Source of the DNA: Bdellovibrio sp. ZAP7
GTDB taxonomy: Bacteria > Bdellovibrionota > UBA1018 > CAIMNF01
Length of the DNA stretch: 64,000 nt
Assembly: GCA_945874535.1 (NCBI GenBank)
Contig: CAMCGZ010000002.1
Location: 73,585 to 137,584 of the forward strand
Direction: 5' to 3'
Shown here: in pieces, positions 48,478 to 57,460 of the stretch
How positions within the stretch are numbered: position 1 is the stretch's first letter
How the letters are laid out: every line of letters begins with the position of its first letter
Translations under genes and position numbers: made by a program
The notes under the pieces: generated by a model
The model's database searches: none
What the model saw: the letters and a program-made list of their open reading frames with translations, nothing else
Told to the model about the DNA's origin: nothing

Positions 48478-49898
48478 AGCAGAGATTCCTGGTCAAGACA
48501 CTCGGATGCAAGGCCAACTCGTCGGATGGCCAGCAAATTGAAGCGGGCTTACTCAAGCACGGTTGGAGTCCTGCGACCGGCGATACCGATGCCGATGTCA
48601 TCGTGGTCAACTCTTGCACGGTGACCGATGAGGCCGATCGTCAGTCCAGAAAACTCGTCCGGGATCTGGCCCGTAAGAATCCCTCAGTCCGCGTGATCTA
48701 CACCGGATGTGGTGCGGAGGTCGACCCCGAGGCGGCATTGAAAATTCCGGGTGTCAGCGCAGTAATCGGAAATCAGGATAAGGATCGTGCCGCCGACCGG
48801 ATCGTGGAACATCTGGAGGCGGCCCCCTCAGAACCGGAAATTCTTGGGACCGTTCGGGGCTATCAGGAGTTCCGTTCCCGTCATCCCATGGATCGTGAAT
48901 GGGCCATGCCATCGACCGGGGCCGAAGAGCTCTTGAGTCTTGATCCATCCGCTTCCACCTTCAGGACTCGTGCGTTCATCAAGGTTCAAGAAGGGTGCGA
49001 TGCATTCTGCACGTATTGTGTGATTCCCTACGGAAGGGGGCCGGCACGGAGTCTCAGAATCGAAGAGATCGTCGATCAGGTGAAACGCCTGAGAGACGAG
49101 GGGATCCGTGAAGTGATCCTGACCGGAACGAACATCGGTGATTACGGAATCGATTGGTCCGGTCAGCCCCGGGTCGACGATCTGATCGAGTCCATCCTGC
49201 TCCATTCCGGAATCGAACGTCTGAGAGTGGGGTCTCTCGATCCGACAGAAATTTCAGAACGGATGATTTCCATGATGGAGGACATCGAGTCTTTTTGCCC
49301 TCACTTTCACGTATCCCTCCAGCATACCGAGTCACGGATTCTGAAGCTCATGAAGCGGAAGTACACAGGCGTTGATGTGGAGGCTAGTCTGGATCGTCTC
49401 GGTTCGATGAAAAGGCGTCCTTTCATCGGAATGGATCTCATCACCGGATTTCCGGGTGAATCTGAAGAAGAGTTTCAAGCCATGGAAGAGCGCCTGAGCC
49501 GATGGCATTGGTCGCGGCTTCATGTGTTCCCATACAGTGAACGTTCCGGTACTCCCGCCACCCGTCTTCCGGATTCGGTGGAGTTCTCCGCCAGGAAGGA
49601 GCGGGCCCGTCGCCTGCTTGCGATCAGTCTGGAGCGAATGACCCGCCGTTTTTCGGATATCCGTGCCGGGGGCCTGGATCGAATCGATGGCGTACTGGTG
49701 GAAGGGCGTGTGAAGGGGCCGGATGGAACGAGGGCCTGGCTCTCGGGCTATTCCCCGGACTATCAAAGGGTGCTGTTCCCGGAGGTTGCCGCATCTCCGG
49801 GCCTCACGCGGAACCGGATCGTACCCGTTAAGATCGGTCGTTGGTTTGTCGATCGGGCATCGGGAGAGGTTTCTTGGATCGGAGAGTGTCATGCCTGA
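48474..49898 (+). CDS. Radical-SAM methylthiotransferase, MiaB/MtaB family
   Basis: N-terminal MTTase Cys (LGCKAN…NSCTVT…), radical SAM CDAFCTYC, C-terminal TRAM-like region. Confidence 0.8.
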   Translation: MKQRFLVKTLGCKANSSDGQQIEAGLLKHGWSPATGDTDADVIVVNSCTVTDEADRQSRKLVRDLARKNPSVRVIYTGCGAEVDPEAALKIPGVSAVIGNQDKDRAADRIVEHLEAAPSEPEILGTVRGYQEFRSRHPMDREWAMPSTGAEELLSLDPSASTFRTRAFIKVQEGCDAFCTYCVIPYGRGPARSLRIEEIVDQVKRLRDEGIREVILTGTNIGDYGIDWSGQPRVDDLIESILLHSGIERLRVGSLDPTEISERMISMMEDIESFCPHFHVSLQHTESRILKLMKRKYTGVDVEASLDRLGSMKRRPFIGMDLITGFPGESEEEFQAMEERLSRWHWSRLHVFPYSERSGTPATRLPDSVEFSARKERARRLLAISLERMTRRFSDIRAGGLDRIDGVLVEGRVKGPDGTRAWLSGYSPDYQRVLFPEVAASPGLTRNRIVPVKIGRWFVDRASGEVSWIGECHA

Positions 49899-50625
49899 TC
49901 AGAAGCCACAGACCCTGCATGGGCTCCAGGACCAGATCCGTTATCCGTTCGGAGATCCGAGGCTATTGATTCTCGCATTGACCCACGTCTCATACGGGCA
50001 GGAGAATCACCAGGAGCGTCTTCCGGTTCAGCGGAACAACGAACGTCTCGAGTTTCTGGGTGACTCAGTTCTGGGCTTGGTGATTTCGGATCTGTTGTTG
50101 GAAGCCTTTCCTGAAGCGAGTGAAGGGCAGTTGTCCAAGATGCGGGCGGCGGTGGTGAATGAGAAGACTCTGAGTGAGATCTCGAAAAGCCTGAGGCTGA
50201 GTGGTTTGATGCTTCTCGGGAAGGGGGAGATGCGCACCGGCGGAAACGAGAAGGCATCGATCCTTTCGAGTGCCTTCGAGGCATTGATTGCCGCCATCTA
50301 CATCGATGGGGGATTCAATGCGGTTTACCCTGTGGTCCGGTATCTCTTCGCACCACTTTTCAGGTCGGAAAACTGCTCGATTTCCTTTCAAGATCACAAA
50401 ACCAGACTTCAAGAGTTGATCCAGAGCCGGTACCGGCTCACTCCGACTTACCACCTGATCGCTTCGAGCGGTCCGGACCATGCCAAGGTCTTCACGGTGG
50501 AGGTCCGGGTCAAGGACCGGGTGCTCGCATCGAGCGAAGGTTCTTCAAAAAAGAATGCCGAGCAAAACGCGGCCTGTGAGGCCCTCCGGATTCTTCCGGA
50601 AATGGACGGAGGATTCGAGAAATGA
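49891..50625 (+). CDS. rnc: Ribonuclease III
   Basis: Start at MPDQKPQTL…; signature …ERLEFLGDSVL…; C-terminal dsRBD. Confidence 0.85.
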   Translation: MPDQKPQTLHGLQDQIRYPFGDPRLLILALTHVSYGQENHQERLPVQRNNERLEFLGDSVLGLVISDLLLEAFPEASEGQLSKMRAAVVNEKTLSEISKSLRLSGLMLLGKGEMRTGGNEKASILSSAFEALIAAIYIDGGFNAVYPVVRYLFAPLFRSENCSISFQDHKTRLQELIQSRYRLTPTYHLIASSGPDHAKVFTVEVRVKDRVLASSEGSSKKNAEQNAACEALRILPEMDGGFEK

Positions 50626-52987: not shown

Positions 52988-53026
52988 GCCGGGGTGGCGA
53001 AATTGGTAGACGCACAGGACTTAAAA
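52988..53026 (+). tRNA. Disrupted host tRNA-Leu(UAA), 5' part (nt 1-39: acceptor 5' strand through anticodon loop CTTAAAA)
   Basis: GCCGGGGTGGCGAAATTGGTAGACGCACAGGACTTAAAA then diverges (CTTTTGGCG…) instead of TCCTG. Completes perfectly with 57411-57460. Confidence 0.8.
53000..53026. repeat. Left copy of 27-bp direct repeat (AAATTGGTAGACGCACAGGACTTAAAA) = att core, tRNA-Leu nt 13-39
   Basis: Perfect identity with 57384-57410; flanking bases differ (G vs A upstream, C vs T downstream). Confidence 0.85.
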
Positions 53027-53077
53027 CTTTTGGCGAGTTTTGGCTAAGTAATTGATATTTTTAAGGATAAATCTCTA

Positions 53078-53296
53078 ATGGTAGAGCAGAAAACCCTCAA
53101 AAAGGTAGAGCAATCTACCGATAAGATCGTAGATATGGCGAGCTTCCGCGAAGCAAAGATGCTTTACGAAATCTCCCAGCGTATAAACCCTCAACACACA
53201 CGAGAGGAAATCTACGAAGCGGTAGAGTTTTTTAAAGCAAATGAAAAGAGAACGAAAGATTCCAGAAAATGCGGAGGTGTTCTTCACACTCATTAA
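53078..53296 (+). CDS. Small ORF (72 aa) upstream of and overlapping the integrase start; doubtful
   Basis: Only ORF evidence; contains the two GGTAGAGCA repeats. Confidence 0.2.
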   Translation: MVEQKTLKKVEQSTDKIVDMASFREAKMLYEISQRINPQHTREEIYEAVEFFKANEKRTKDSRKCGGVLHTH

Positions 53297-54419
53297 GCCG
53301 ACTCCAAACAAGGAGGGGCCGAATGCTCGTCGCTCATTTGCTTTCATCATGGACATTCAATACGCTGATGGCCGCCGCGATCAACCTCGCTACCAGTTTC
53401 CCGAAGGCGACGACCGACTAAAGGTCATCAATAAATCCTACAAGATCGCCGACGATAAAAACGAAGCCTTCGAGAAGTGCCTCAAGCTCGCTTTAGACCT
53501 TCAAAAGAAACTTTACGTTGAGCACGGTCTTGAGAAAAAGACGGTCTTCAATCAGGAAAACTACGGAGTGCTGGATCAGTTTTTCGACTGGAAATACAGC
53601 GCGAAGAAAACGAAAGATAAAACTGCCGCGTACAACGATTTCCGCCGCGCAGTCGATGCCGTTGGTTCAATTCCGCTGCAAACTGCAACTAAGGCGGAAA
53701 TCCAGAAAGCGATCTCCGCCGCCGAAAATAAACAGCAACGGAGAATTGCGAGCCGCTTGAACATGATTTTTAAGTATCTCAAGCGAGATATTGTTTTGGA
53801 TAAGGACAAGAAAAAAAGAGTTTCTGTCCGCTACCTGAACGAAAAAGAATTCGCCTCGGTGATGAAGCTCATTAAGGACGAAAATCTGCGCTTAGTTTTC
53901 GAGATGGCCTTTCATTCCGGCTGTCGCATGGGCGAACTTTTCGCTTTAAATGAAGCTGATTTGCGTGCAGGGTTGCTGACCGTCGATAAGCAAATGCTCC
54001 GAACCGAAGAGGCTGTCCGTCGTCGGAAGCAAGAATACAAAGCCAAGGGCAAAACTTGGACGAATTGGATTCCGAAACCTACTGACCTGACCACCCCGAC
54101 AAAAAACGAACAAAGTCGGCGGGTCGTCGTTTTCGAAGAGTTCGCTCCCGCCTTTAGAAAATGGTGCGAGCTGGATTACGAAACAAAATTTAAGCTGCGG
54201 CATTCGCGGTTAGCGGAGATTTTAAAGACCGCTTGCGAGCAGAAGTTTCCGCAAAATGCTCAGAAACAATGCGTAGCTCATTGGACCGCGCCCCTCAACT
54301 TGGAAACCGCATCGAGGTTTGCCAGGAATTTTACACAGGCTACGAACTCCACAACGAGAACATCACCGTCCTCAAGTCGCTTATGCTGGCAAAAAAATAA
54401 TCGTTACGGGCGCCCGTAA
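53241..54419 (+). CDS. int: Tyrosine-type site-specific integrase (catalytic Tyr position possibly substituted: …ETASRFARNF…)
   Basis: Core motifs …AFHSGCRMGELFAL… (Arg I) and …KLRHSRLAEIL… (H-x-x-R). C-terminal region aligns by eye to the T-x-R-Y-A-H nucleophile motif but reads R-F-A-R. Start could alternatively be Met at 53349. Confidence 0.75.
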   Translation: MKRERKIPENAEVFFTLIKPTPNKEGPNARRSFAFIMDIQYADGRRDQPRYQFPEGDDRLKVINKSYKIADDKNEAFEKCLKLALDLQKKLYVEHGLEKKTVFNQENYGVLDQFFDWKYSAKKTKDKTAAYNDFRRAVDAVGSIPLQTATKAEIQKAISAAENKQQRRIASRLNMIFKYLKRDIVLDKDKKKRVSVRYLNEKEFASVMKLIKDENLRLVFEMAFHSGCRMGELFALNEADLRAGLLTVDKQMLRTEEAVRRRKQEYKAKGKTWTNWIPKPTDLTTPTKNEQSRRVVVFEEFAPAFRKWCELDYETKFKLRHSRLAEILKTACEQKFPQNAQKQCVAHWTAPLNLETASRFARNFTQATNSTTRTSPSSSRLCWQKNNRYGRP

Positions 54420-54490
54420 CGCAACCTTAATTCTTGAATTGTCAAGACTCTTCAGGTAAGGTTTTTTCAAGTTTGAAAAAATGAGTGTAT

Positions 54491-54814
54491 GCCCCCATGG
54501 TGAAATCGGTAGACACAAAGGACTTCAATTGGAGCCTCGTCTGGGAAACCTTATGAGTGGACACAGGGATAACGGTGAACGCTTACTGCTTCGCAGTAGT
54601 TGCCAACACCGTGGGAACATCGAGCAAGAAATTGGGAGATGAGCGCCGTAGAGACTAGATACCTGTGCACCTAAAATTCGCAAGAATCACGGTGAAGATA
54701 TAGTCCAGACCACAAACAAGACCGATTTATTTCGGAGTTGGCGGCGAAAGTCGAAGTGGTAAGAAAATCCTTGCCCGTAAGGGAGTGCCAGTTCGATTCT
54801 GGCTGGGGGCACCA
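54491..54814 (+). tRNA. tRNA-Leu(UAA) interrupted by a group I intron in the anticodon loop (exons 54491-54525 and 54764-54814; mature 86 nt incl. CCA)
   Basis: Exon 1 GCCCCCATGGTGAAATCGGTAGACACAAAGGACTT. Exon 2 AAAATCCTTG-CCCGTAAGGG-AGT-GCCAGTTCGATTCTGGC-TGGGGGC-A-CCA. Acceptor GCCCCCA/TGGGGGC, anticodon stem AAGGA/TCCTT, loop CTT|AAAA, long variable arm (type II), discriminator A. Confidence 0.8.
54526..54763 (+). ncRNA. Group I intron (tRNA-Leu(UAA) anticodon-loop type, ~238 nt, no ORF)
   Basis: Inserted after U34, ends in G. R-like element CGTAGAGACTAGATACC (54648-54664) and a perfect S consensus AAGATATAGTCC (54695-54706) form P7. GAAA tetraloop (GCGAAAG) near the 3' end. P1 region CAATTGGAGCC resembles cyanobacterial tRNA-Leu introns (UUGAGCC). 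Confidence 0.75.
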
Positions 54815-54815
54815 A

Positions 54816-55259
54816 CTATTTTTTCTGAATCTTTTTTTGATTCTTACTCGATTTTTTTGAGATCGAGTTTGGATATCGATCAAGTGAACAAGCTTTCCGC
54901 ACCTCAGATAAAAGACTGTACTGCTTAACATCAGTGTACGGATTGAGAAACGTCTCCACATTTTTTAGCTCAGCTTCCCCGTACAGCGAAAAAGTCTCGG
55001 CGGGAATGTCGATGGTTGCTTCAACGTACTGACCTTTTTCATTAATCGTATTCGCTGGCACAAAAGACCGAAGCTTGAATCGGGTTTCGGAATTAGTTTT
55101 TGGATTAACGATAAAATACCAGCTCGGTTCATTCATCGCTTTAACAAGAAGTCCCTCAAGAGTGCAGGTGCCTTTTGGAAATCTCGTAAGGGCAAAGCTG
55201 GCCGAAGGAAATGCCAAGACCAAAATTAAAGATAAAAGAATTTTATTTTTAGTAAGCAT
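54816..55259 (-). CDS. Secreted hypothetical protein (147 aa), overlapping and co-directional with the C13 peptidase gene
   Basis: Signal peptide MLTKNKILLSLILVLAFPSASFA; Lys-rich C-terminus. 11-nt overlap with the upstream gene. Confidence 0.5.
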   Translation of the reverse strand: MLTKNKILLSLILVLAFPSASFALTRFPKGTCTLEGLLVKAMNEPSWYFIVNPKTNSETRFKLRSFVPANTINEKGQYVEATIDIPAETFSLYGEAELKNVETFLNPYTDVKQYSLLSEVRKACSLDRYPNSISKKSSKNQKKIQKK

Positions 55260-56754
55260 ATTCCAAGCATCTCCTAATCGACGAATACTCCTTGATCATA
55301 TTGTCGTCGCCATATTTCAATAAATCCAATTCAAGATTCAAAATTTCGTATTTACGACGGTCTTTTTCAACTTCAGCTAACTTAATTTTTATTTGCTGTG
55401 CATCCAACTGGCCTTGCTGGCGTTTCGCGGCTTGCTCTTGGGGGGACAGGCGATCCCAGTTCTTTGCGGACTCAGCAATACTCGCCTTGAGGTCCTGAAT
55501 CCTCAAATCAAGGTCATCAAGAATAGCAGCGGAATCTTTGCCTTTAAGATTTTGGATAGTCTTTTCCAAACTCCCTTTAAGATATTGATGGCGACTTCCT
55601 GGAATACCATCAGTTGAAATTCCCATCTTCCCTTTCATTCGCTCAAAATCTTCGAGCAAACTTGCGATCTGTTTGAAAGCATCGTCGGGATGCGTGGAGC
55701 AACCGCTGACAGATTGAATGGGACTGATTTTTTTAGATCTTCCTTCGAGGATTTTGTTTTTATTCTTCGTAAGAAACCACTCAAGACTTGTCGTCGGAAT
55801 ATTCTGCGGATTATCTAAGTTCGTCGCATACAAGTGGGCATCCCAGTAGGTCGCTTTGCTGTCTTTGTCGGTATCCAATTTCTTTTTCAAAGCATAAGGA
55901 AAGTTCTGTCCATATAGGTCCAGATCAATGGATTCAGATAAACTCGTTTTGTTTCCTTGTTGATTGGCGAACACACAAACATTCGAGGAGGTCAGCTCGG
56001 TTAAACCACCGCCATAGCAAATATTCGTCACAACTCGAATCTGATTCGTTAACGGGAACTCACGAAGTAAATCACCCAATTGATTTACTGTCATGCTTTC
56101 GCCCCAAAGTGTCACAGTAGAACCACCTTCGGGATCTTGTTCACCGTGATCGGTTATGTAGAGGGTTAAATTGTCGCCCGGTTTTAATTTTCCGCGAAGC
56201 TCTCGGAACTTGTCTTTTATATTTTGCGAAGTCGCCCCGCCGTCGAGTTCGCGTTTTTCGCCGCTAAAAAGATAATCGAGGGTAATTGTGCTCGGAGCTG
56301 CAGGTTTGTCTGACTTATCCGATTTAACACCCGTTCCATCCCCTGATGGGATTGTTCCCATTCGAGTGGGTTCCATTTTGGTCTCACTCGGCATCACTTG
56401 GGCCGAGGGAGGAGAACCATATGAACCGCCGCCGCCATACCGGCCCGGCTGTCCCATCTCTGGAAATATCGGCTGAGTACTTGGCGAGTTAGTGTCTTCG
56501 ACCTTGCCGCTACCGTAAAGCACCATGATGTGATCCGATGCAATTCTGTTGCTACGAAAAGCATCATACATCGTGCGAACATTTTCGAAGTACCGTTGAT
56601 GATTGCTGGCTCGGTTTGCCCCACCGTTGATAATGACCGCATAATTTTTGCCGTCTCCGTCGCCTGCATTTGCGACCGAGATTGCGAGAATTAAAATTAA
56701 AGAAAAATAAAGTTTAACCATTCCAGTTATCTTATCGACACAGATTAAGTTCAA
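55249..56754 (-). CDS. Secreted legumain-like cysteine peptidase (peptidase family C13, clan CD caspase-like fold) with C-terminal coiled-coil region
   Basis: Signal peptide (…ILILAISVANA). N-terminal …KNYAVIINGGANRASNHQRYF…IMVLYGSG…; catalytic His in …LTLYITDHGEQ… and Cys in …RVVTNICYGGG… ~43 residues apart, as in legumain (…YFTDHG… / …IEACESGS…). Confidence 0.7.
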   Translation of the reverse strand: MNLICVDKITGMVKLYFSLILILAISVANAGDGDGKNYAVIINGGANRASNHQRYFENVRTMYDAFRSNRIASDHIMVLYGSGKVEDTNSPSTQPIFPEMGQPGRYGGGGSYGSPPSAQVMPSETKMEPTRMGTIPSGDGTGVKSDKSDKPAAPSTITLDYLFSGEKRELDGGATSQNIKDKFRELRGKLKPGDNLTLYITDHGEQDPEGGSTVTLWGESMTVNQLGDLLREFPLTNQIRVVTNICYGGGLTELTSSNVCVFANQQGNKTSLSESIDLDLYGQNFPYALKKKLDTDKDSKATYWDAHLYATNLDNPQNIPTTSLEWFLTKNKNKILEGRSKKISPIQSVSGCSTHPDDAFKQIASLLEDFERMKGKMGISTDGIPGSRHQYLKGSLEKTIQNLKGKDSAAILDDLDLRIQDLKASIAESAKNWDRLSPQEQAAKRQQGQLDAQQIKIKLAEVEKDRRKYEILNLELDLLKYGDDNMIKEYSSIRRCLEYAY

Positions 56755-56839
56755 TTTAAAGAAATCGTTAAAGATTTCGACTTTTTGATCGCTCTAAATC
56801 GATTTCTTCCATTCTGGTTGATCTTCGTCCCGACTTTCG

Positions 56840-57154
56840 TCAGCACTTTGACGCCCAGGCCTTTAATCCAATACCGTTCAGACGATCCAAAGCACCTATT
56901 TTATCCATCCCATAAGCTTCGAGCACCTTTATAAAATCAAGCGGATGAATTTTTCCGGCGGACTCGTATTCTCGTAAAAGTTCGGTATCAATTCCTATTT
57001 TTTCTGCGGCTTCGTCGATTGTAACGGGATTACCCCGAATCCAATCCGCATTCATTTCGTAGTGTTCAGCTAATTCCTTCGCCCAGGCGCGAAGCACAAC
57101 CTCTTCCGCATCCGTGGGCTTACGGTCGCCGTAAAGCCATCTCTTTTTTCCCAT
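56840..57154 (-). CDS. Xis/AlpA-like HTH DNA-binding protein (putative excisionase/regulator)
   Basis: …PVTIDEAAEKIGIDTELLREYESAGKIHP… fits the HTH_17/excisionase pattern (xTxxEAAExLGxxxxTLxRxxxxGxxP). Gene sits at the attR-proximal end. Confidence 0.5.
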   Translation of the reverse strand: MGKKRWLYGDRKPTDAEEVVLRAWAKELAEHYEMNADWIRGNPVTIDEAAEKIGIDTELLREYESAGKIHPLDFIKVLEAYGMDKIGALDRLNGIGLKAWASKC

Positions 57155-57383
57155 TCAATTTAAGTCTAACGGACTTTTCTAAATCGGGCAAAGACCTCTA
57201 ACCACTAAGGTTTTTCGTCCAGTTCCTTGCAGCATCGGTGCAGCACGAGCCGCACCTTCAAGCTTCATATTCTAACCCCATAACAGCCGCCGGACTCCGG
57301 CGGTCCCGCCAAAACCGTGAACCCAAAACCAAGCCTCCGCGACCGGCGTTTTTCGCCGCAGCGCCCCCTTTTTGCCCAAATCA

Positions 57384-57410
57384 AAATTGGTAGACGCACA
57401 GGACTTAAAA
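57384..57410. repeat. Right copy of 27-bp direct repeat (att core)
   Basis: Identical to 53000-53026. Confidence 0.85.
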
Positions 57411-57460
57411 TCCTGGGTTTGGCAACAGACGTACCGGTTCGATTCCGGTCCTCGGCACCA
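57384..57460 (+). tRNA. Disrupted host tRNA-Leu(UAA), 3' part (nt 13-86 + CCA); lacks the 5' acceptor strand and D-stem
   Basis: AAATTGGTAGACGCACAGGACTTAAAATCCTG-GGTTTGGCAACAGACGT-ACCGGTTCGATTCCGGT-CCTCGGC-A-CCA; upstream sequence (…TTTGCCCAAATC) cannot pair with CCTCGGC. Confidence 0.8.

What the first reader, a model, noticed from the sequence alone, without database searches (positions are those of the whole stretch)
52988..57460. Apparent 'destroy-and-replace' arrangement: the element inactivates the host tRNA-Leu(UAA) and supplies its own
This is inference from the two observations above. Integration severs the chromosomal tRNA-Leu(UAA). No other tRNA-Leu(UAA) is visible in this window, although the rest of the genome is unknown. 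The element's only RNA cargo is a tRNA with the same anticodon. If the host copy is unique, decoding of UUA (and part of UUG) would depend on the element's intron-containing gene and on successful self-splicing. That makes the element hard to lose unless excision is precise, and it couples translation of rare Leu codons to intron splicing. The att core also covers the anticodon loop, the same place where the element's tRNA carries its intron. This resembles tRNA-gene replacement cassettes in some phages and ICEs, but with a disrupted target and an intron.
Basis: inference. Interest (0 to 1): 0.7.

Follow-up and report, generated by a model that had tools for sequence, protein, structure and literature searches.

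The report
Island that replaces host tRNA-Leu
A small, decayed mobile element has cut the host's tRNA-Leu(UAA) gene in two and carries its own copy of that tRNA, interrupted by a self-splicing intron; this break-and-replace strategy is already known from some phages, but the intron and the bacterial group (Bdellovibrio relatives) are new.

Summary
An exact 27-nt direct repeat (53000-53026, 57384-57410) bounds a 4.4-kb insert. Joining the two flanks gives a perfect 89-nt tRNA-Leu(UAA). Neither junction alone gives a tRNA. The insert carries a tRNA-Leu(UAA) gene (54491-54814) with a 238-nt group I intron between U34 and A35.

First, the integrase (53241-54419) is a pseudogene: a 49-nt deletion removes the HxxR catalytic motif and frameshifts the catalytic tyrosine. 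Second, the layout recurs in the family. Five further related elements in three integrase clades carry their own tRNA-Leu(UAA) next to the integrase. Hosts, where known, are Pseudobdellovibrionaceae. In three of the five the tRNA-like att segment demonstrably stops at the anticodon loop. More distant relatives carry the tRNA 3' part (two loci) or sit next to an intact tRNA (one), and none of these has a second tRNA of its own.

The intron is far better conserved than integrase third codon positions and shows compensatory changes, so it is under selection.

The strategy is already described and tested as "tRNA-dependent lysogeny" (Guerrero-Bustamante and Hatfull 2024) and in Rhizobium phages. 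This is therefore a new variant, not a new kind. Whether the host lacks a second tRNA-Leu(UAA) could not be tested.

The parts
52988..53026 (+). attL: 5' fragment of the host tRNA-Leu(UAA), from position 1 to the end of the anticodon loop. It is followed by non-tRNA element sequence (CTTTTGGCG...).
   Evidence: Sequence read. ARAGORN finds no tRNA at attL alone, but finds one after joining to the attR flank.
53000..53026 (+). Left copy of the 27-nt common core (D-loop to anticodon loop).
   Evidence: Exact direct repeat D1.
53078..53296 (+). Small ORF (72 aa) that overlaps the integrase start. A small ORF is called at the same position in related elements. Function unknown.
   Evidence: ORF list. 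Equivalent small ORFs are called in L004, L007, L028-L031 and L033. No Pfam or PHROG hit.
53241..54419 (+). Tyrosine integrase pseudogene. A net 49-nt deletion just after 54281 removes the D-L-R-H...V-S segment, which includes the catalytic HxxR motif. It puts LGNRIEVCQEFYTGY (catalytic Tyr) out of frame.
   Evidence: PHROG phrog_1 integrase, E=4.5e-18, matching only residues 71-308. No Pfam hit. Protein alignment with intact homologs. DNA alignment. Frame translations. Intact homologs hit PF00589.
54491..54525 (+). Exon 1 of the element's tRNA-Leu(UAA), up to U34.
   Evidence: ARAGORN intron mode.
54526..54763 (+). Group I intron, 238 nt. Same insertion site (34/35), U-1 and terminal G as the classical 'Leu.3Ug' tRNA-Leu intron type.
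   Evidence: RF00028 hits in all family members. (P1-P9 helices, 16 compensatory pairs). (the minimum-energy fold recovers P2, P3, P4, P5, P6, P8 and the two P9-region hairpins). (89-92% identity against 59-71% at integrase third codon positions).
54764..54814 (+). Exon 2 of the element's tRNA-Leu(UAA), from A35 to the encoded CCA.
54816..55259 (-). Cargo ORF, 147 aa, unknown function.
55249..56754 (-). Cargo ORF of about 490-500 aa with a weak match to Peptidase_C13 (legumain-like).
   Evidence: Pfam PF01650, E=0.0025, below the cut-off.
56840..57154 (-). 104-aa helix-turn-helix protein (weak MerR/HTH_3 match) next to attR. Possibly an excisionase or regulator (inferred).
   Evidence: Small MerR or HTH_17 ORFs lie upstream of the attP-like site in L029 and L030.
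57384..57410 (+). Right copy of the 27-nt common core.
57384..57460 (+). attR: 3' part of the host tRNA-Leu(UAA), from D-loop to CCA. It is preceded by element sequence (GCCCAAATCAAA) that cannot form the acceptor or D stems.
   Evidence: Only a weak tRNA-Sec-like partial hit, 24.7 bits, E=0.25.

Best explanation
Positions 52988-57460 hold the remnant of a site-specific integrative element. It belongs to a small family found in Bdellovibrio relatives, some of whose relatives are phage-like.

How it works:
1. The family's tyrosine integrase recombines an attP site with the host tRNA-Leu(UAA) gene.
2. The attP site retains only the D-loop-to-anticodon-loop part of the tRNA (25-27 bp).
3. Because attP lacks the tRNA 3' half, neither junction is a functional tRNA after integration. 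The host gene is left as a 5' piece at attL and a 3' piece at attR.
4. The element makes up for this with its own complete tRNA-Leu(UAA) gene just downstream of the integrase. Here that gene is interrupted by a group I intron between U34 and A35, so mature tRNA requires self-splicing.

This is the 'tRNA-dependent lysogeny' logic.

In this copy the integrase has been killed by a 49-nt deletion, and the backbone genes seen in relatives are gone. The element is therefore locked in. The intron-bearing tRNA is most likely the cell's working tRNA-Leu(UAA).

Shown: the split gene, the replacement gene, the dead integrase, recurrence of the layout in the family, and selection on the intron. Inferred: that the host has no second copy, that the tRNA is expressed and spliced, and where exactly the crossover lies.
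For: - Split gene and exact 27-nt repeat.
- Replacement tRNA with intron.
- Integrase homologs P0002-P0009 keep HDLRH and LGNRIEVCQEFYTGY, whereas the window copy has a 49-nt deletion and frameshift.
- The same attL is seen in other hosts. L005: GCCGGGGTGGCGGAATTGG...CTTAAAA|CTTTTTTCG. L008/L010, a Pseudobdellovibrionaceae MAG: GCTCGAG...CTTAAAA|CTTTTTTCGGG. Each is followed by the integrase and then an intron-containing tRNA-Leu(taa).
- L032 has attP CGCATTGGTAGACGCACAGGACTTAAAA|CTTTGG lying between genes that are not host-like: a VapE-like gene and many small ORFs on one side, SLT, RuvC and DNA polymerase A genes on the other. Its own intron-less tRNA-Leu(taa) starts one base after the integrase stop codon.
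- L028-L031 have integrase plus intron-tRNA-Leu(taa), and an attP-like site that ends at CTTAAAA.
- Conventional relatives: the L035 and L033 attP sites carry the tRNA 3' part to the acceptor end, L011 has an intact tRNA-Leu next to the integrase, and none has a further tRNA in the locus.
- Intron under selection: 89-92% identity against 59-71% at integrase third codon positions; 16 of 45 helix pairs are compensatory, including changes within the close clade in P3 and P8a; RF00028 hits in all copies searched.
- UUA is used by hosts: 27 of 49 window ORFs have at least one TTA, including der; the L008 host flank has 17.1 TTA per 1000 codons.
- B. bacteriovorus has only 35-36 tRNA genes, and its tRNA table mentions Leu 10 times across the two genomes, which fits five tRNA-Leu genes each (PMC3539863).
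- The mechanism was demonstrated experimentally in mycobacteriophages (PMC10865867).
Against: - The rest of the genome is not available, so a second tRNA-Leu(UAA) cannot be excluded.
- In the Logan assembly of ERR3719164 the contigs break exactly at the core on all three sides. This implies that attB-type 31-mers are present in that sample. They could come from empty-site cells, a second gene copy, or another species with the same tRNA segment; the tRNA in L011 contains the full 27-nt core and its immediate flanks.
- Element genes are rich in UUA (19.3 against 2.1 per 1000 codons). The tRNA could therefore also, or instead, serve the element's own codon usage.
- No promoter was recognised upstream of the tRNA by the simple scan.
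- The Rfam intron scores are below the gathering threshold.
- A complete attL plus attR pair was seen only in the window.
Confidence: 0.75

Rival explanations
1. The host has a second intact tRNA-Leu(UAA). Disruption of this copy is harmless, and the element's tRNA is an accessory gene that supports translation of the element's own UUA-rich genes. This would be the ordinary codon-compensation role of phage tRNAs.
For: - Element ORFs use TTA at 19.3 per 1000 codons, against 2.1 in host ORFs. Element G+C is 45.7%, against 55.8% for the window.
- The same contrast is seen in L005.
- attB-type k-mers exist in the same sample.
- Only 64 kb of the genome can be seen.
Against: - Across the family, elements whose att segment is truncated carry their own tRNA-Leu(UAA), while the conventional relatives have none in the locus. 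L034 is ambiguous.
- In the L008 host, TTA is as common as in the element (17.1 against 14.2 per 1000), so codon compensation cannot explain the tRNA there.
- Bdellovibrio genomes have minimal tRNA sets (PMC3539863).
- The tRNA and intron stay intact while the integrase and backbone genes have decayed.
Confidence: 0.15
2. The element's tRNA or its intron is non-functional in this decayed copy. UUA decoding would then be provided in some other way, or the lineage would be heading for loss.
For: - The integrase is dead and the element has shrunk.
- The Rfam score is only 25.9 bits.
- No promoter was called.
Against: - All helices P1-P9 are intact, and the differences from the close relatives L005 and L010 in P3 and P8a keep the pairing.
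- The U-1·G wobble pair and the terminal G are present.
- The exons fold into a canonical tRNA-Leu.
- Intron identity to relatives (89-92%) far exceeds that of integrase third codon positions.
Confidence: 0.06
3. The arrangement is an assembly artefact or chimera in a metagenome contig.
For: The source is a metagenome assembly.
Against: - The same sequence is held under three sources (ENA, Logan, NCBI). The ENA contig spans both junctions, and the Logan contigs agree base for base with it.
- The same attL architecture occurs in unrelated samples and hosts.
Confidence: 0.02

Closest known systems
tRNA-dependent lysogeny of actinobacteriophages (Fionnbharth and Cluster L with tRNA-Lys-TTT; Gaia with tRNA-Leu-CAA). 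Guerrero-Bustamante and Hatfull, mBio 2024, PMC10865867.
   Same: - A tyrosine integrase is used.
- attB lies inside a host tRNA gene.
- attP lacks the tRNA 3' half, so no functional tRNA forms at attL or attR.
[quoted passage not shown] In Gaia it lies downstream of the integrase, as here.
- Close relatives of the integrase use the conventional rebuilding mode (Boilgate against Fionnbharth; Omega against Gaia).
   Different: - The host is a Bdellovibrio relative, not an actinobacterium.
- The common core is 25-27 bp (D-loop to anticodon loop), not 8-12 bp.
- The complementing tRNA carries a group I intron.
- The window copy is a 4.4-kb island remnant with a dead integrase and no phage genes, so 'lysogeny' does not strictly apply.
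- Essentiality is shown there by experiment and is only inferred here.
Rhizobium leguminosarum vTRX32-1-like temperate phages (Front Microbiol 2021, PMC8631192), and prophage Lj965 of Lactobacillus johnsonii as cited in PMC10865867.
   Same: [quoted passage not shown] The phage copy lacks the att motif, which the authors suggest prevents super-integration.
   Different: - The core is 12 bp.
- There is no intron.
- The phages are of a different type (Autographiviridae-like, 42-45 kb) and the host phylum differs.
Classical bacterial tRNA-Leu(UAA) group I intron: cyanobacteria and plastids, subgroup IC3, type 'Leu.3Ug' in Williams 2020 (bioRxiv 10.1101/2020.01.27.920355).
   Same: - Same insertion site, between U34 and A35 (CUU/...g/AAAA).
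- U-1·G wobble pair in P1 and a terminal G.
- Conserved GUAGAGACUAGA and GAAGAUAUAGUCC core segments.
- No homing endonuclease ORF.
   Different: The intron is carried on a mobile integrative element next to an integrase and replaces an intron-less chromosomal gene. Its Rfam score is below threshold. Splicing has not been tested.
Conventional tRNA-targeting integrative elements and prophages that rebuild the tRNA from an attP-borne 3' half (own knowledge: Reiter 1989; Williams 2002).
   Same: A tyrosine integrase lies adjacent to attL. The target is a tRNA gene. Direct repeats bound the island.
   Different: The identity block stops at the anticodon loop instead of running to the tRNA 3' end, so the gene is not rebuilt.

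Membership tests
tRNA-dependent lysogeny (PMC10865867) | A tyrosine-family integrase mediates attP x attB recombination, with attB overlapping a host tRNA gene. | tested here: met
   Integrase homology: phrog_1, E=4.5e-18; PF00589 in the intact homologs. The integrase lies next to attL inside tRNA-Leu(UAA). The window copy is itself a pseudogene, so the activity is past, not present.
tRNA-dependent lysogeny (PMC10865867) | The common core is too short or misplaced, so no functional tRNA is reconstructed at attL or attR. | tested here: met
   ARAGORN finds nothing at attL, attR or attP, but finds tRNA-Leu(taa) in the reconstructed attB. The core is 27 bp and ends at the anticodon loop.
tRNA-dependent lysogeny (PMC10865867) | [quoted passage not shown] | tested here: met
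   tRNA-Leu(taa) at 54491-54814. The same holds in L005, L010, L028-L031 and L032.
tRNA-dependent lysogeny (PMC10865867) | The disrupted host tRNA is single-copy and essential, and the element's tRNA is needed for survival. | not testable with these tools
   Only a 64-kb window of a metagenome contig is available. Indirect support comes from host use of UUA and the 35-36 tRNA genes of B. bacteriovorus.
tRNA-dependent lysogeny (PMC10865867) | The element is a temperate phage. | tested here: not met
   The window insert has no phage structural or replication genes. L005 and L010 look like islands carrying defence or efflux cargo. Only the more distant L032 and L033 carry phage-type genes.
Group I intron of the tRNA-Leu(UAA) 34/35 type ('Leu.3Ug', IC3) | Insertion between U34 and A35, with U-1 in a wobble pair in P1 and a terminal G. 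| tested here: met
   ARAGORN places the intron as gactt|...g|aaaat. P1 is ACUUC/GGAGC with a U·G pair at the splice site in all five sequences.
Group I intron of the tRNA-Leu(UAA) 34/35 type ('Leu.3Ug', IC3) | Conserved catalytic core (P3-P8, with P7 as a pseudoknot) supported by covariation, and a match to the family model. | tested here: inconclusive
   RF00028 matches all copies searched, but at 25-36.6 bits, below the gathering score of 50. In hand-drawn helices, 45 pairs include 16 compensatory ones, and the minimum-energy fold recovers most helices. Subgroup IC3 was assigned by resemblance, not by a subgroup model.
Group I intron of the tRNA-Leu(UAA) 34/35 type ('Leu.3Ug', IC3) | Self-splicing activity. 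| not testable with these tools
   This needs an in vitro transcription and splicing assay.
Conventional tRNA-rebuilding integrative element | attP carries the tRNA 3' part, so an intact tRNA is present at one junction. | tested here: not met
   No tRNA at either junction. After CTTAAAA the attL sequence is CTTTTGGCG, not TCCTG. For contrast, see the relatives L011, L033 and L035.

The most novel reading that the evidence does not exclude
These integrase-plus-tRNA modules act as vehicles that install an intron-bearing tRNA-Leu(UAA) as a cell's only copy. Integration destroys the intron-less host gene. Later decay of the integrase, as caught in this window, fixes the intron-containing gene in the chromosome.

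This would give a route for horizontal spread of tRNA group I introns that needs no homing endonuclease. It could help explain their patchy distribution across bacterial phyla.

A corollary concerns the intron's position. It splits the 15-bp stretch AGGACTT|AAAATCCT, which the replacement gene would otherwise share with attB. The element's own tRNA gene is then not a substrate for its integrase or for a superinfecting relative.
Probability: 0.25. Interest if true: 0.75.

Novelty: new variant of a known kind. Interest (0 to 1): 0.5.

Why it matters
- It extends tRNA-dependent lysogeny beyond Actinobacteria, Rhizobium and Lactobacillus to Bdellovibrio relatives, and to non-phage islands.
- It is, as far as I could find, the first case in which the complementing tRNA needs group I self-splicing. 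Decoding of UUA would then depend on a ribozyme brought in by a mobile element.
- The dead integrase shows what follows such an integration: the element decays, but its tRNA is retained.
- Recent surveys consider horizontal transfer of tRNA introns infrequent because few carry homing endonucleases (PMC13011429). An integrative element that swaps the whole gene is a concrete alternative route.
- In practice, tRNA finders run without intron mode would score such genomes as lacking tRNA-Leu(UAA).

Tried and rejected
- The JGI metagenome scan with the integrase profile returned only the contig already known, plus spurious short matches.
- The GTDB genome scan gave one close member (the same MAG as L008) and a few distant ones.
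- tblastn of the integrase against 50,697 GenBank phage records found no match.
- An IMG/VR search for the attP junction GGTAGACGCACAGGACTTAAAACTTT found no match.
- I tried to reach the attR of a second element through homologs of the 104-aa HTH protein. That gave only the protein itself and an unrelated 2-kb contig with a transposase.
- The promoter and terminator scan gave counts no higher than in shuffled sequence and nothing upstream of the tRNA.
- MAFFT misaligned the two intron clades in P1-P5, so helices were assigned by hand. That table is therefore not an unbiased covariation test.
- A local profile of the integrase family found it next to only 1 of the 120 IMG/VR intron loci, so those phage tRNAs are not part of this family.
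- The idea that the attR junction or the attP left arm supplies a working 5' half was rejected. GCCCAAATCAAA cannot pair with the acceptor or D-stem partners.
- The 'intron as att-site breaker' idea is weakened by L032. Its intron-less tRNA still shares 13 bp (GGACTTAAAATCC) with the target.
Full report
**1. The observation**

The finding's coordinates are exact. Position 52988 is G1 of a tRNA 5' fragment, GCCGGGGTGGCGAAATTGGTAGACGCACAGGACTTAAAA. It runs through the anticodon loop and then continues as CTTTTGGCG, which cannot form the 3' strand of the anticodon stem.

At 57384-57460 lies the matching 3' part, from the D-loop to CCA. It is preceded by GCCCAAATCAAA, which cannot form the acceptor or D stems.

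The two pieces share an exact 27-nt direct repeat at 53000-53026 and 57384-57410. ARAGORN finds no tRNA at either junction or in the reconstructed attP. It finds a fully paired 89-nt tRNA-Leu(taa) when the two flanks are joined across one copy of the core.

With intron mode on, ARAGORN calls tRNA-Leu(taa) at 54491-54814 with a 238-nt intron at 54526-54763, between U34 and A35. Standard tRNA and Rfam searches missed both features.

**2. The integrase is a pseudogene**

The ORF at 53241-54419 matches the PHROG integrase family only over residues 71-308 and has no Pfam hit. A search of the large protein collection found eight homologs besides the protein itself.

The intact homologs keep CVAH-DLRHSFAIRLLQFVNLTYVSLQ-LGNRIEVCQEFYTGY. 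In the window the sequence leaves this frame after CVAH, and the LGNRIEVCQEFYTGY segment reappears in another frame.

At the DNA level there is a net 49-nt deletion just after 54281. The rest of the gene is close to its relatives, and the stop codon of the shifted frame lies at the same aligned position as theirs. The catalytic HxxR motif is deleted and the catalytic tyrosine is out of frame. This appears to be a single lesion in an otherwise intact gene.

This copy cannot integrate or excise by itself.

**3. Source and host**

The window comes from a metagenome contig, ENA ERZ27280281 k141_1252531, 153 kb. The one close relative with a taxon name lies in a Pseudobdellovibrionaceae MAG. More distant relatives lie in Bdellovibrionales and Oligoflexia MAGs.

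**4. The arrangement recurs in the family**

Close relatives, integrated:
- L005, L006 and L007 (integrase 85% identical) show the same attL in another host: ...GGCGGAATTGGTAGACGCACAGGACTTAAAA|CTTTTTTCG.
- L008, L009 and L010 (90% identical) show it in a host with a different acceptor stem (GCTCGAG).
- In both groups the integrase follows, and then a tRNA-Leu(taa) with a 225-nt or 272-nt intron.
- Their cargo differs. One carries TIR, caspase-like, HNH and methylase genes; the other carries efflux genes. They share a run of like-sized backbone ORFs that the window insert lacks.

A second clade (L028-L031, integrase about 53% identical):
- Integrase, a 150-aa ORF, then tRNA-Leu(taa) with a 214-216-nt intron.
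- An attP-like site ends at CTTAAAA, with HTH genes upstream. This looks like an unintegrated form. The assignment is tentative because the host is unknown.

A third clade (L032, 37% identical):
- A 46-kb scaffold with VapE-like, DNA polymerase A, RuvC and SLT genes.
- It carries attP CGCATTGGTAGACGCACAGGACTTAAAA|CTTTGG between element genes.
- Its intron-less tRNA-Leu(taa) starts one base after the integrase stop codon.

More distant relatives (29-34% identical) are conventional:
- The L035 attP holds the anticodon arm through the 3' acceptor strand of tRNA-Leu(UAA).
- The L033 attP holds the D-loop through the 3' end of a tRNA-Leu(CAG).
- L011 has an intact tRNA-Leu(UAA) just upstream of the integrase.
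- None of the three has another tRNA in the locus.

L034 (integrase followed by an intron-less tRNA-Leu(UAA), with no att fragment found) is ambiguous.

The pattern is therefore a truncated attP together with an own tRNA, against a full 3' half with no own tRNA. This is the same contrast that Hatfull's group describes for Boilgate/Fionnbharth and Omega/Gaia.

The simplest history is this. The ancestral common core ran from the D-loop to the tRNA 3' end. It lost everything beyond the anticodon loop once a same-anticodon tRNA gene was on board. The 27-bp core is what remains, and the crossover must lie within it.

**5. The intron**

- RF00028 matches all four intron-bearing loci searched, at 25-36.6 bits (E from 3.6e-6 to 0.011). 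All are below the gathering score of 50.
- I assigned helices P1-P9 by hand on five distinct sequences. Of 45 pairs, 16 show compensatory changes, 4 one-sided changes and 24 are invariant. Only P1 pair 1 and one P2 pair in L010 are non-standard.
- Within the close clade, where positional homology is not in doubt, the window differs from L005 and L010 by A-U to G-C in P3 and by U-A to C-G in P8a.
- P7 is GACUA/UAGUC in one clade and GACUU/AAGUC in the other.
- The splice-site U·G pair and the terminal G are present in all five.
- The unconstrained minimum-energy fold recovers P2, P3, P4, P5, P6, P8, P8a and both P9-region hairpins, with a z-score of -1.75.
- Intron identity between the window and L005 or L010 is 89% and 92%. 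Third codon positions of the adjacent integrase gene are 59% and 71% identical.

The intron is therefore under purifying selection, even in the lineage where the integrase has died. Its site and ends are those of the classical 'Leu.3Ug' type.

**6. Is the host dependent on it?**

This could not be tested directly.

For dependence:
- Hosts use UUA. In the window it is rare but widespread: 2.1 per 1000 codons, present in 27 of 49 ORFs, with two in der.
- In the L008 host flank UUA is common, at 17.1 per 1000 codons.
- B. bacteriovorus has only 35-36 tRNA genes. Its two-genome tRNA table mentions Leu 10 times, which fits five tRNA-Leu genes each.
- The tRNA is retained intact while the integrase and backbone genes decay.

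Against, or neutral:
- Element genes are rich in UUA, at 14-22 per 1000 codons. The tRNA also suits the element's own translation.
- In the Logan assembly of ERR3719164 (I take k to be 31), the left flank ends at the core, the element contig overlaps the core by 30 nt at each end, and the right flank starts at the core. A 27-nt repeat cannot by itself break a k=31 graph. attB-type 31-mers must therefore be present in that sample.
- Their source is open. It could be cells without the element, a second gene copy, or another species with the same tRNA segment. The tRNA in L011 contains the full 27-nt core and its immediate flanks.

Precise loss is still possible in principle. Recombination between the two 27-bp repeats, or a relative's integrase acting in trans, would restore the host gene. 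Only imprecise deletions would be lethal.

**7. Comparison with what is known**

The strategy is already named and tested. 'tRNA-dependent lysogeny' (PMC10865867) has these features: a tyrosine integrase, a short core, no rebuilt tRNA, and a phage tRNA of the same isotype that lysogens need to survive. Gaia even carries tRNA-Leu-CAA downstream of its integrase.

The Rhizobium vTRX32-1-like phages interrupt a tRNA-Leu at a 12-bp core and carry a replacement that lacks the core (PMC8631192). Lj965 of Lactobacillus johnsonii is cited as a further case.

No tRNA intron is mentioned in the mycobacteriophage paper or in the passages of the Rhizobium paper that I read.

New here:
- the host group;
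- a longer core lying 5' of the anticodon loop;
- the group I intron in the complementing tRNA;
- use of the module by non-phage islands;
- a fossil copy with a dead integrase.

I therefore class it as a new variant of a known kind.

**8. Seen on the way**

In 105 of them the motif lies inside an ARAGORN split-tRNA call. Forty of these are typed Leu(taa), often within phage tRNA arrays.

A 2014 review stated that all phage introns then known were in protein-coding genes (PMC3984707). I did not establish whether this abundance has been reported since.

Noticed in passing
In 105 of 120 it lies inside an ARAGORN intron-containing tRNA call. Forty are typed Leu(taa) and 25 'Tyr(ata)', the latter probably with a mis-set splice site. 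Many sit in phage tRNA arrays of up to 21 tRNAs. A 2014 review said no phage tRNA introns were known (PMC3984707).
   Followed up: partly
window 53078-53296 (+); equivalents in L004, L007, L028-L031 and L033: A small ORF of about 70-90 aa overlaps the 5' end of the integrase gene by about 50 nt and is called at the same position in related elements. It has no family match. It could be a directionality factor or an arm-binding module.
   Followed up: no
Logan contigs L002, L004 and L157 (window 52997-57413 and both flanks): The ERR3719164 assembly breaks exactly at the 27-nt core on all three sides. A 27-nt repeat cannot cause this if the assembly used k=31, as I assumed. The sample must therefore also contain the uninterrupted tRNA junction.
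   Followed up: partly
L010 11330-11375: The intron of the Pseudobdellovibrionaceae MAG copy has an extra AT-rich hairpin of about 45 nt, inserted in the P1 loop between the 5' splice site and the internal guide sequence.
   Followed up: no
L005 11637-14663: In the close relative, the cargo directly after the tRNA is a ThsB-like TIR protein, a Peptidase_C14 (caspase-like) protein, an HNH nuclease and a DNA methylase. This is a probable anti-phage defence cluster. In L008/L010 the same position holds an OEP/MacB-type efflux system.
   Followed up: no
window 49807-50034: In intron mode ARAGORN calls a 'tRNA-Ala(ggc)' with a 131-nt intron. The region lies under long ORFs that the ENA gene calls annotate as a radical-SAM protein and RNase III. 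This is almost certainly a false positive.
   Followed up: no
window 54402-54421: A perfect 8-bp G+C-rich hairpin, CGTTACGGGCGCCCGTAACG, overlaps the end of the frameshifted integrase ORF. It is read as a terminator only on the minus strand (T-run), so it may insulate the integrase from antisense transcription.
   Followed up: no
window 52988-57460 compared with the rest: The insert has 45.7% G+C against 55.8% for the window, and uses TTA about nine times more often than host ORFs do.
   Followed up: yes
L064 5038-5318 and L146 3868-4148: Two small IMG/VR contigs carry an intron-containing tRNA-Leu(UAA) whose exons are about 90% identical to the window element's tRNA. The intron is shorter (195 nt) and no integrase lies in the available sequence. 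This may be the nearest phage-borne relative of the captured gene.
   Followed up: partly
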